NCBI GenBank assembly: GCA_951406725.2
Contig: OX597822.1
Span: 113,708,001 to 113,772,000 of the forward strand
Length of the DNA stretch: 64,000 nt
Source: Octopus vulgaris
Taxonomy: Eukaryota
Direction: 5' to 3'
Shown here in pieces: positions 32,312-50,730 of this stretch (positions are counted from its first letter, which is position 1; each line of letters begins with the position of its first letter). The translations under genes were made by a program, and so were the position numbers. The notes under the pieces are model-generated. The model did not search any database. It saw only the letters and a list, made by a program, of their open reading frames with translations, and was not told the origin of the DNA.

Positions 32312-32367
32312 ATTTTTGATAAGGTTCGTTTTTTCAAGAGGAACCGAAAAACCGAAACATGTAAAAT
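32312..32367 (+). ncRNA. Hammerhead motif with U3-A8 covariant core, in fold-back element 32052-32430
   Basis: ATTT-TTGATAA(32316-32322)-GGTT...AACC-GAAA-C-AT-GTA-AAAT; the inverted arm carries a second copy at about 32118-32164 (-). Confidence 0.6.
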
Positions 32368-43082: not shown

Positions 43083-43284
43083 ATGATGTATGTATAATAT
43101 AGAAATTACATTGTGTATATATATATATATATATATATATAAGAGAACAAAGTGTACGTACGCCGCTCAGCCGAAATTGTGAGGATGATCCGGTTCTTGA
43201 CTGAAGATTAAAGGCTTCGAATGACCTGTCCGTGTTTTTTGTATCACCTAGTTGTCCGGATGTTTTGCGTTCTTGTTCCATTTC

Positions 43285-43357
<73 letters not shown>

Positions 43358-43500
43358 CGAAATGGAACAAGAACGCAAAACATCCGGACAACTAGGTGAT
43401 ACAAAAAACACGGACGGGTCATTCGAAGCCTTTAATCTTCAGTCAAGAACCGGAATCATCCTCACAATTTCGGCTGAGCGGCGTACGTACACTTTGTTCT

Positions 43501-48800: not shown

Positions 48801-49549
48801 ACCACACGTACCATTTAATATAGAAGCGTTATGCTCACTAGAATTTTGCATAGTAAATCTTATTTTGTTCCATACATTCATAATGATTTTTAAGATTGAT
48901 AAGTGCTAATGATTCCACATCAACACTCTTTTTTTCACCTGTTCTTTTGATAAACTTTAGTTTGATATCTAATGATATTGCTTTACACTTACGGGACACG
49001 GGAGCTAATAAGAGTACTGAATTTTGTTTTAATTACAGTACGTTAAGAAATTAAGAAATTGTTATACTAGTAATAGGATGTAGCACATGTAAAAACTCCA
49101 GACTTCAAAAACAAAGTGTGACTGATTGATTGTTTTCTTCTCTGCGCCTGAATAAAGCAACGAGATGGTTCTTTATTAGGCGGTTCGTATTCAAGCAGAA
49201 AATTCCGAAAGTGAAGCAAACAATGAGAATGAGGAAAGGCTCGTGATTTTGGCAGTTGAATAGCAGCAATATTAAGCATTTCGCTAAGGGGCGAATTGGC
49301 AGAATCATTAGCACAGAGGGCAAAATGCTTAGCGGCATTTCGTCCATCTTTACATTCTGAGTTCAAATTCCGCCGAAGTCAACTTTGCTTTCAAACTTTC
49401 TGGGTCGATAAAATAAGTACCGGTTGAGCCCGAACTTGCTAGTCTGGTGTCAAAATTTGAAATCAATACAAGCATTTCGTTAAAACGAAGTTTCGTTCAT
49501 AAAGGTAACACAAAACGAAATACTTGCGTATATATGCATGAATATGTGT

Positions 49550-49609
<60 letters not shown>

Positions 49610-49655
49610 ACAAGTCAAGATAGAAAATGCTAAAATAATTTTATATAGAACACTT

Positions 49656-49693
49656 CAGTACCGGTTTCGGTCATTTTGAGACCTTTTCAACTG
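49656..49693 (-). ncRNA. Hammerhead motif with U3-A8 covariant core
   Basis: Minus strand: CAG-TTGAAAA-GGTC-TCAAAAT-GACC-GAAA-C-CG-GTA-CTG (palindrome ACCGGT). Confidence 0.6.
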
Positions 49694-49855
49694 TAACGAT
49701 TAAATAATTAAATTTAGAAAAATTAAAAGAAAAGTTTTTTTAAAGGAATATTTGTATAGTGTTCAAATATAAGGGGCATTTTCCTTGTTTCTGCCTTGCT
49801 CTGTCTCTTTTGTTTACACTTGTGGGTTCGAGGTCGTTGTGAATTCTTGGTAGGG

Positions 49856-49999
49856 AAGAAGAAGAAGAAGAAGGAGAAGAAGAAGAAGAAGAAGAAGAAG
49901 AAGAAGAAGAAGAAGAAGAAGATGATGATGATGATGATGATGATGACGATGTTGATGATGATGAAGAAGAAGGAGAAGGAGAAGGAGGAGAACAAGAAG

Positions 50000-50030
<31 letters not shown>

Positions 50031-50090
50031 CGATGATGATGATGATAATGATGATGATGAAGAAGAAGAAGAAAAAAGAGAAGGAAGAAT
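49856..50090 (+). repeat. Compound (GAA)n/(GAT)n microsatellite
   Basis: Direct reading of the sequence. Confidence 0.95.
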
Positions 50091-50730
50091 ATGAATGAGT
50101 GGAAGTAGTGAGGTGTTGTATGACTTGAAGTTGGCACGTTATGGGTTATAGCTGTGATTGGGTCTGATTTGTAATGGATTCTTTGGAATGTAATATTTGC
50201 GTGTGTATTTGTGTTATTCTAAAGTCGAGGTGTATATATCGTTTGTCGTTGACCCGTTAAGAAGTGGCCTGTATTTTGTAATAAAGAGAGTTTCTTTACT
50301 TATTCGTTGTCTCGAGGTTGTAACGTCCCTGAATTGGTAGAGGGGGAAAATCCTGAAGCTTGGTGTTTTGTTGTTGGCGCAAGTATCTATGTGTTGGCTG
50401 AATGCTATTTTTCTGTTTTGGGGAATTTTTATCTGGGATCTGTGCAGGGCCATTCTTTTACGCAAACTATTTATATATAAGCATGAATATGTGTGCGCAT
50501 ATATATATATATAATTCAAAAACACGTGTAGTAAATAAACATATGAAAATATACTAAATACACAGACGCACATCGATAATGGCCGAAGTTGCGCGTTGCC
50601 CCTCTGGCCGATAACTGAAGAGGACTTGGTGACCTTCTGTATTTTCTGTTCGTCTGGGTATTTAGTATATATTCGCATGTTTATTTACTACACGTGGTTT
50701 TGAATTATATATATGTATATATATGCATAT

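What the first reader, a model, noticed from the sequence alone, without database searches (positions are those of the whole stretch)
49656..49693. U3-A8 covariant hammerhead at the 3' end of a Penelope fragment
Seen: the core reads UUGAAAA instead of CUGANGA, with stems I (CAG/CUG), II (GGUC/GACC) and III (ACCGGU, GUA triplet) intact. Established: C3 and G8 form a Watson-Crick tertiary pair in the active hammerhead, and U3-A8 is a tolerated compensatory variant. Inference: a double change at exactly these two positions, also seen in an unrelated insert at 32316, points to selection on catalysis. Standard CUGANGA searches would miss such motifs.
Basis: partly seen in the sequence, partly recalled or inferred. 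Interest (0 to 1): 0.75.

Follow-up and report, generated by a model that had tools for sequence, protein, structure and literature searches.

The report
Known hammerhead variant in Penelope retroelement
This is the normal self-cutting-RNA (hammerhead) motif at the end of a jumping-gene family with over 2,000 copies; its swapped core pair is already published, and sister families with other swaps make it likely that the pair is kept by selection, although cutting is untested.

Summary
The motif is real and at the stated coordinates: a type I hammerhead with a U3-A8 core in the end repeat (pLTR) of a 5'-truncated Neptune-type Penelope-like element (PLE). U3-A8 is the family consensus: 2,197 copies match the flanks, and the first 100 listed all read UUGAAAA. 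It is not new. Cervera and de la Pena 2014 report U3-A8 in schistosome PLE hammerheads, with the same heptamer, and this scan met it before on other DNA. The 32316 insert is not unrelated: it is the end of the sister Neptune family (63% amino-acid identity, 100/100 support), so it probably reflects one inherited change. Better evidence for selection lies elsewhere in the clade: nine ORF-linked families carry U-A (4), A-U (4) or G-C (1) at 3-8, none C-G, with covarying stems. Against strict selection, U·G and C·A lineages also multiplied, 26 of 26 copies run past the cut site, and U3 can pair with A17 and cover the cut site. Best reading: a weak, dimer- or protein-assisted ribozyme; this solo copy is probably inert. 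Cleavage was not tested.

The parts
49656..49693 (-). Type I hammerhead motif: stem I CAG/CUG, core UUGAAAA (U3 49690, A8 49685), stem II GGUC/GACC, GAAA, palindromic stem III ACCGGU, GUA triplet; predicted cut between 49659 and 49658
   Evidence: sequence; Rfam HH9 E 0.0037, below gathering; family consensus
49651..49698 (-). Extended stem I: 49698-49695 can pair with 49654-49651 beyond an A·A mismatch; the window copy has a private A-to-G change at 49653 (U-A becomes U·G)
   Evidence: HH9 alignment
49604..50471 (-). 5'-truncated copy of a Neptune-type PLE: endonuclease end, long 3' UTR/pLTR with hammerhead, ending about 53 bases past the cut site at a (TA)n run, without the optional ~34-base tail
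50217..50471 (-). C-terminal 85 codons of the GIY-YIG endonuclease; 92% identical to sister copy L017 and 97% (71 columns) to the long-ORF copy L244
   Evidence: Pfam GIY-YIG passes its cut-off on the sister ORF (24.3 bits) but finds nothing on this fragment alone
49857..50080 (.). Low-complexity (GAA/GAT)n tract in the 3' UTR, present with variable length in sister copies
49536..49568 (+). Left copy of a 33-base direct repeat ending in (TA)n, likely target-site duplication
50481..50513 (+). Right copy of the same 33-base direct repeat
32312..32367 (+). U3-A8 hammerhead (UUGAUAA) of the sister Neptune family; this copy is damaged by an 8-base duplication before GAAA
32118..32165 (-). Inverted, decayed partner copy of the 32316 hammerhead (back-to-back pLTR fragments typical of PLE insertions)

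Best explanation
This is the family-consensus hammerhead motif of a Neptune-type Penelope-like retrotransposon, and it likely cuts its RNA only weakly, as a pair of copies or with help from the element's protein, with U3-A8 predicted to replace the usual C3-G8 core pair. Shown: the anatomy, the family consensus, the position (3' UTR, and about 155 bases before the ORF1 start codon in a tandem copy), the sister relation to the 32316 family, and Watson-Crick states at 3-8 across the clade. Inferred: two motifs in a tandem transcript pair through ACCGGU to build stem III. A competing U3-A17 pair keeps the rate low. Cutting trims or regulates the element's RNA rather than making the template end, since copies start reverse transcription downstream of an uncut motif. 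Selection acted on active master elements; this truncated solo copy is probably an inert passenger.
For: Consensus: 30 of 30 loci; first 100 of 2,197 flank-matched copies with the core left free; 0 changes at 11 core positions in 38 copies. Contigs of three runs labelled as other organisms and one run of the same label show no variant at 10% or more inside 49656-49693, against 15 variable places outside. Element: C-x4-C-x2-C linker before GIY-YIG, 784-codon open frame in L244, tandem pLTRs in L243. Clade: nine ORF-linked families with U-A 4, A-U 4, G-C 1. In 15 chosen motifs stems I-III and 3-8 covary, 93.3% of cells paired against 63.4% shuffled. Dimer -18.7 kcal/mol against +0.8 for the monomer with a closed stem III. 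Papers: U3-A8 natural and active in vitro (PMC3088659). In an anole PLE hammerhead, single 3/8 mutants are dead, the double is partly rescued, and cleavage needs the protein (PMC11167929).
Against: No cleavage or RNA-end data. A U·G subfamily makes up 10 of the first 100 of 1,491 copies of a young sister family. U·G and C·A retrozyme-like lineages multiplied too (382 and 148 genome matches against controls of 36 and 26). C11.1 differs in 13 of 38 copies of this family (sample enriched for the window's subfamily). 26 of 26 copies run past the cut site. The U3-A17 form is predicted more stable than the active form (-20.9 against -18.7). The tree backbone is unresolved, so as few as two double changes may underlie the clade pattern. 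Rows were picked from pattern hits, so that test is partly circular. In the anole element hammerhead mutants still inserted in vitro.
Confidence: 0.72

Rival explanations
1. The motif is kept as a folded structure (protein-binding or reverse-transcription start signal) and no longer needs to cut. The 3-8 pair is conserved for shape, not chemistry.
For: All 26 copies examined extend past the cut site. U3-A17 can cover the site. Wobble and mismatch lineages multiplied. Hammerhead mutants did not affect insertion in vitro and no RNA-seq ends were seen at the cut site in the anole PLE (PMC11167929).
Against: Catalytic positions (U4, G5, A6, A9, A13, A14, A15.1, U16.1 invariant; G12 nearly so) hold across families whose ORFs are about 40-64% identical, while stems change freely (partly fixed by the search patterns). 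N17 is A, C or U in all 15 rows, as cleavage requires.
Confidence: 0.17
2. U3-A8 is neutral decay of C3-G8 by C-to-T and G-to-A mutation in an AT-rich genome, fixed by chance in one ancestor and inherited.
For: Both changes are transitions towards AT. The two window families are sisters, so one event suffices. Single-change lineages exist.
Against: AT drift does not explain A3-U8 (79 of the first 100 matches of a pattern that allowed A/G at 3 and C/U at 8, hand count), nor G3-C8 nested among A3-U8 families, nor the move from U-A towards C-G in a retrozyme-like clade. The far more numerous minimal-stem-III class in the same genome mostly keeps G8 and, where checked, C3.
Confidence: 0.08
3. One reading: two unrelated elements changed to U3-A8 independently and each is a fully active ribozyme.
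For: The two motifs differ in stems I, II and III. U3-A8 also occurs in retrozyme-like repeats of this genome, so the state may have arisen more than once at a wider scale.
Against: The 32316 motif lies 384-485 bases after a Neptune ORF 61-64% identical to this family's, and the two form one clade at 100/100. The 32316 window copy is damaged.
Confidence: 0.03

Closest known systems
Minimal type I hammerheads in pLTRs of metazoan PLEs, including the U3-A8 variant of Schistosoma mansoni Cercyon elements (Cervera and de la Pena 2014, PMC4209133; read: parts 1-2 of 4 and supplement passages)
   Same: Type I, in the pLTR, short palindromic stem III, G10.1-C11.1, U3-A8 core (about 1,300 hits in S. 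mansoni). The supplement row S. mansoni(4) has the same UUGAAAA heptamer. Dimer model.
   Different: Here stem III has four inner bases (ACCGGU, like the fly and rotifer variants of that paper), there is no extra base after A9, and the carrier is a Neptune-type element. Sister families carry A3-U8 and G3-C8, which I did not see in the parts read.
Hammerhead of the Poseidon element of Anolis carolinensis (Frangieh et al. 2024, PMC11167929; read: parts 1-2 of 4 and passages)
   Same: PLE pLTR hammerhead upstream of the reverse-transcription start. Two 3' ends 30-40 bases apart ('tail'), as here (ends near 64 and 98 bases past the cut). Copies derive from uncut RNA.
   Different: Canonical C3-G8 core and Penelope/Poseidon clade. 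The cut lies inside the ORF there, and in the UTR before ORF1 here. Tested at the bench there, not here.
Natural U3-A8 hammerheads (Perreault et al. 2011, PMC3088659; read: passages)
   Same: States that C3-G8 covaries to U3-A8 in several natural examples and that such variants are active in vitro.
   Different: A survey across all domains of life; the passages read do not tie the variant to Neptune elements or to dimer-dependent motifs.
Neptune clade of endonuclease-bearing PLEs (as described in Craig et al. 2021, PMC8557442; read: passages)
   Same: RT, then C-x(2-5)-C-x2-C linker, then C-terminal GIY-YIG; pLTRs; tandem and inverted copies; optional tail; microsatellite targets; 3' hammerhead.
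   Different: Placement rests on the linker motif and domain order; no tree with named reference Neptunes was built. An upstream overlapping ORF1 is present in L243.

Membership tests
Type I hammerhead ribozyme | Three helices around the core, open at stem I | tested here: met
   (stem III only as a dimer)
Type I hammerhead ribozyme | Core U4 G5 A6 A9, G12 A13 A14, A15.1-U16.1, H17 | tested here: met
Type I hammerhead ribozyme | Watson-Crick pair between positions 3 and 8 | tested here: met
   U3-A8; covaries to A-U and G-C in sister families
Type I hammerhead ribozyme | Rfam gathering score of a hammerhead model | tested here: not met
   HH9 21.2 bits against 52; HH9 models a longer, C3-G8 motif
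Type I hammerhead ribozyme | Self-cleavage after N17 | not testable with these tools
   only contigs were available; they cannot show RNA ends
PLE pLTR (minimal, dimer-type) hammerhead | Located in the pLTR of a PLE, duplicated in tandem copies | tested here: met
   L243 carries it in both pLTRs, 4,386 bases apart
PLE pLTR (minimal, dimer-type) hammerhead | Palindromic 15.2-16.2 region that can pair between two copies | tested here: met
   ACCGGU; middle pair changes to A-U on both sides in 2 of 15 rows; dimer energy
Neptune-clade PLE | RT followed by C-terminal GIY-YIG endonuclease | tested here: met
   Pfam GIY-YIG on the sister ORF; RT motif region with YLDD aligned in L244; no Pfam RT hit on the one 142-aa piece scanned
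Neptune-clade PLE | C-x(2-5)-C-x2-C zinc-finger-like linker | tested here: met
   C-x4-C-x2-C in L004, L015, L017, L244; motif definition from PMC8557442. The motif is shared with Nematis.
Neptune-clade PLE | Phylogenetic placement among reference Neptune RTs, apart from Nematis | not tested
   no named reference sequences were in hand
Non-LTR retrozyme | Non-coding 170-400-base tandem unit | tested here: not met
   the motif is attached to a coding element

The most novel reading that the evidence does not exclude
One Neptune clade in this genome has left the canonical C3-G8 pair and cycled through the other three Watson-Crick pairs (U-A, A-U, G-C), while a retrozyme-like clade shows a stepwise return from U-A towards C-G with a multiplied C·A lineage as sister. 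This would be a natural series that shows how a catalytic tertiary pair changes and how much cutting PLEs need. In the U3-A8/GUA families a U3-A17 pair would act as a built-in brake that the element's protein or dimer pairing releases.
Probability: 0.35. Interest if true: 0.5.

Novelty: new member of a known kind. Interest (0 to 1): 0.27.

Why it matters
The motif itself adds one more family to a published variant. The useful part is the clade: closely related elements with U-A, A-U, G-C and U·G at one tertiary pair, some young with long open frames, give ready-made natural comparisons for the open question of what PLE hammerheads do and whether cutting is needed for transposition. It also shows that CUGANGA descriptors undercount these motifs. 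In the four-base stem III class, U3-A8 matches outnumber C3-G8 by 5,262 to 433, though the much larger minimal class stays canonical.

Tried and rejected
Whole-window Rfam scan: dominated by microsatellite matches to miRNA models; no hammerhead among the 150 rows shown of 452. Folding z-scores: not informative. Expression: no RNA holder listed; contigs cannot show RNA ends. Outgroup with a hammerhead: the metagenome scan gave 15 loci; the closest (L267, 42% identity) ends about 100 bases after its ORF and shows no motif, and two distant PLE contigs (L272, L274) carry C3-G8, so the Neptune tree could not be rooted. The first retrozyme tree was distorted by flanking DNA and was redone on trimmed rows. 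Alignment A3 had one row at wrong coordinates and was redone. The first dimer energy was not computable as drawn and was redone in the strand-swapped form. Automatic family clustering chained two families, so it was not used for counts. Rows dropped before the family count as false ORF-motif links or chance: L111, L132, L159, L190, L198. The 3'-end tally was conditioned on bases past the cut and counts overlapping loci; one search is the unconditioned test. Lunse et al. 2017, Przybilski and Hammann 2007 and Martick and Scott 2006 were not held, so they are known only through citing papers; Lunse et al. may already list A3-U8 or G3-C8 motifs. One supplement file of PMC4209133 could not be searched. 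Searches for A3-U8 or G3-C8 in print listed no natural example, but figures and subscription papers are not covered. The host looks like an octopus to me (recalled impression, unverified); a paper search on that guess gave only PMC8557442.

Full report
Observation. U3 is 49690, A8 is 49685, and the predicted cut is between 49659 and 49658. A structure scan of the window with positions 3 and 8 left free gave three hits: this one, 32316 and one weak AT-rich hit. Rfam on the short stretch aligns it to Hammerhead_HH9 (E 0.0037, 21.2 bits, below gathering). Folding energy is not above shuffles, so the case against chance rests on the family data.

The element. The motif lies near the 3' end of a 5'-truncated insertion (about 49604-50471, minus strand). 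It begins in the last 85 codons of a GIY-YIG endonuclease, ends in (TA)n and is flanked by a 33-base direct repeat. Sister copies show RT, a C-x4-C-x2-C linker and GIY-YIG, the layout of Neptune-type PLEs in PMC8557442 (passages). L244 holds a 784-codon open frame. L243 has the motif in both pLTRs, the upstream one 155 bases before the ORF1 start codon. The window copy is solo and lacks RT.

Consensus test. Of 43 matches to the terminus, 30 were fetched and all 30 read UUGAAAA. A pattern that left the seven core bases free found 2,197 copies (control 0), and the first 100 listed all read UUGAAAA. In 38 copies the 11 core positions show no change, while non-CpG flanks vary at 2.5%. Contigs from four public runs, three labelled as other organisms, show 15 places varying at 10% or more, none inside the motif (suggestive only).

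The 32316 insert is a relative. Its family is also uniformly U3-A8 (30 of 30 fetched of 49 matches), though the window copy carries an 8-base duplication. In L072/L191 and L050/L192 the motif follows, by 485 and 384 bases, a Neptune ORF 61-64% identical to L244. In a 20-row tree of linked ORFs the two families form a clade at 100/100. One inherited change explains both.

What does bear on selection. Genome-wide, for motifs with G after A9 and a four-base stem III, the counts are U3-A8 5,262 (control 45), C3-G8 433 (65), U3·G8 382 (36) and C3·A8 148 (26). A looser pattern with purine at 3 and pyrimidine at 8 gave 2,042 (control 486). By hand count its first 100 are 79 A-U, 9 G-C, 8 A·C and 4 G·U. 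Nine families could be tied to Neptune ORFs: four U-A, four A-U and one G-C, none C-G. The G-C family sits inside an A-U clade (100/99); its ORF-side copy reads G·U, while the inverted partner and two relatives read G-C. In 15 chosen motifs 93.3% of cells pair against 63.4% in shuffles, and position 3-8 shows A-U 6, U-A 6, G-C 2 and U·G 1. The rows were picked from pattern hits and the backbone is unresolved, so the number of independent double changes may be as low as two. The minimal class (GAAACGUH; 28,621 matches, control 3,946) is mostly G8 and, in the loci checked, mostly C3, so U3-A8 does not dominate the genome as a whole.

What speaks against strict selection. A young sister family with many long open frames is U-A in 90 and U·G in 10 of the first 100 of 1,491 copies. 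About 360-base retrozyme-like repeats include multiplied U·G and C·A lineages. Their tree has U-A rows at the base, with C·A and C-G as nested sister clades (98/93), which suggests change one base at a time. In the focal family C11.1 differs in 13 of 38 sampled copies. All 26 copies matched only on the part 5' of the cut continue past it. Most end at one of two points about 34 bases apart, the PLE 'tail' pattern.

Mechanism. Shown by computation: a monomer with closed stem III is unfavourable (+0.8 kcal/mol), whereas a dimer pairing through ACCGGU is at -18.7, and adding U3-A17 gives -20.9. The last is the counterpart of the C3-G17 trap proposed for canonical hammerheads (PMC3884650, passages). 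Inferred: the motif cuts slowly, in tandem transcripts or with protein help, and trims or regulates the RNA rather than fixing the template end. This follows PMC11167929 (parts 1-2 of 4). There, single 3/8 mutants of a PLE hammerhead were inactive, the double was partly rescued, cleavage needed the protein, and insertion in vitro did not need cleavage. Cleavage of this motif is untested.

Known or new. PMC4209133 (parts 1-2 of 4; supplement passages) reports U3-A8 in S. mansoni Cercyon PLE hammerheads, about 1,300 hits, one row with the same heptamer. PMC3088659 (passages) reports natural U3-A8 covariation. Other papers seen: PMC6765202 and PMC7229834 (passages) and bioRxiv 10.64898/2026.07.22.740005 (part 1 of 5). 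Earlier notes of this scan record U3-A8 in this and other genomes and G3-C8 in this genome (unchecked). Searches listed no natural A3-U8 or G3-C8, but Lunse et al. 2017 could not be read.

Verdict. Observation confirmed, interpretation partly supported, a new member of a known kind. Interest 0.27, most of it from the clade-wide series of core pairs rather than from this copy.

Noticed in passing
L197-L226, L141, L233-L239 (e.g. L217:1490-1533 minus): Abundant A3-U8 hammerheads with 2-3-bp stem II and clean stem I, tied to at least four Neptune families; 79 of the first 100 of 2,042 matches. Not found in the paper searches run.
   Followed up: partly
L229:1070-1113 minus, L230:3916-3960, L231, L232: G3-C8 hammerheads nested among A3-U8 Neptune families; only a few copies seen.
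   Followed up: partly
L147-L176, L227, L228: Very young Neptune family (copies about 99% identical, many open frames over 800 codons; 1,491 motif matches). A subfamily has U3·G8 and also lacks the first 3' base of stem I, yet multiplied.
   Followed up: partly
L085, L091-L097, L104, L127-L132, L137, L138: About 360-base retrozyme-like tandem repeats whose tree runs from U3-A8 at the base to nested C3·A8 and C3-G8 clades; the mismatched C·A lineage forms tandem arrays.
   Followed up: partly
L121-L126, L073, L135, L140: Retrozyme-like family with a U3·G8 core and GUU triplet, the commonest sequence among the first 100 U·G matches, next to U3-A8 relatives.
   Followed up: partly
L139:680-1000 (G000:C5 near 125.26 Mb): Tandem array of 31-base units, each a bare hammerhead core without stem I (mostly C3·A8).
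   Followed up: no
L243:950-1060 minus: A copy of the focal family runs directly, about 45 bases past its cut site, into the pLTR of the young family just before that family's hammerhead: one PLE inserted into another or a template switch.
   Followed up: no
L236:4121 minus and 4216 plus: Inverted partner copies of one insertion differ at both core positions (one U3-A8, one A3-U8) with the same stems II and III.
   Followed up: no
window 42965 (+) and 37719 (-): Two canonical C3-G8 minimal hammerheads of another abundant repeat family.
   Followed up: no
window 50497-50726 and 43236-43407: Long inverted repeats bounded by (TA)n, likely back-to-back ends of other mobile elements; the first matched none of the other fetched loci.
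   Followed up: partly
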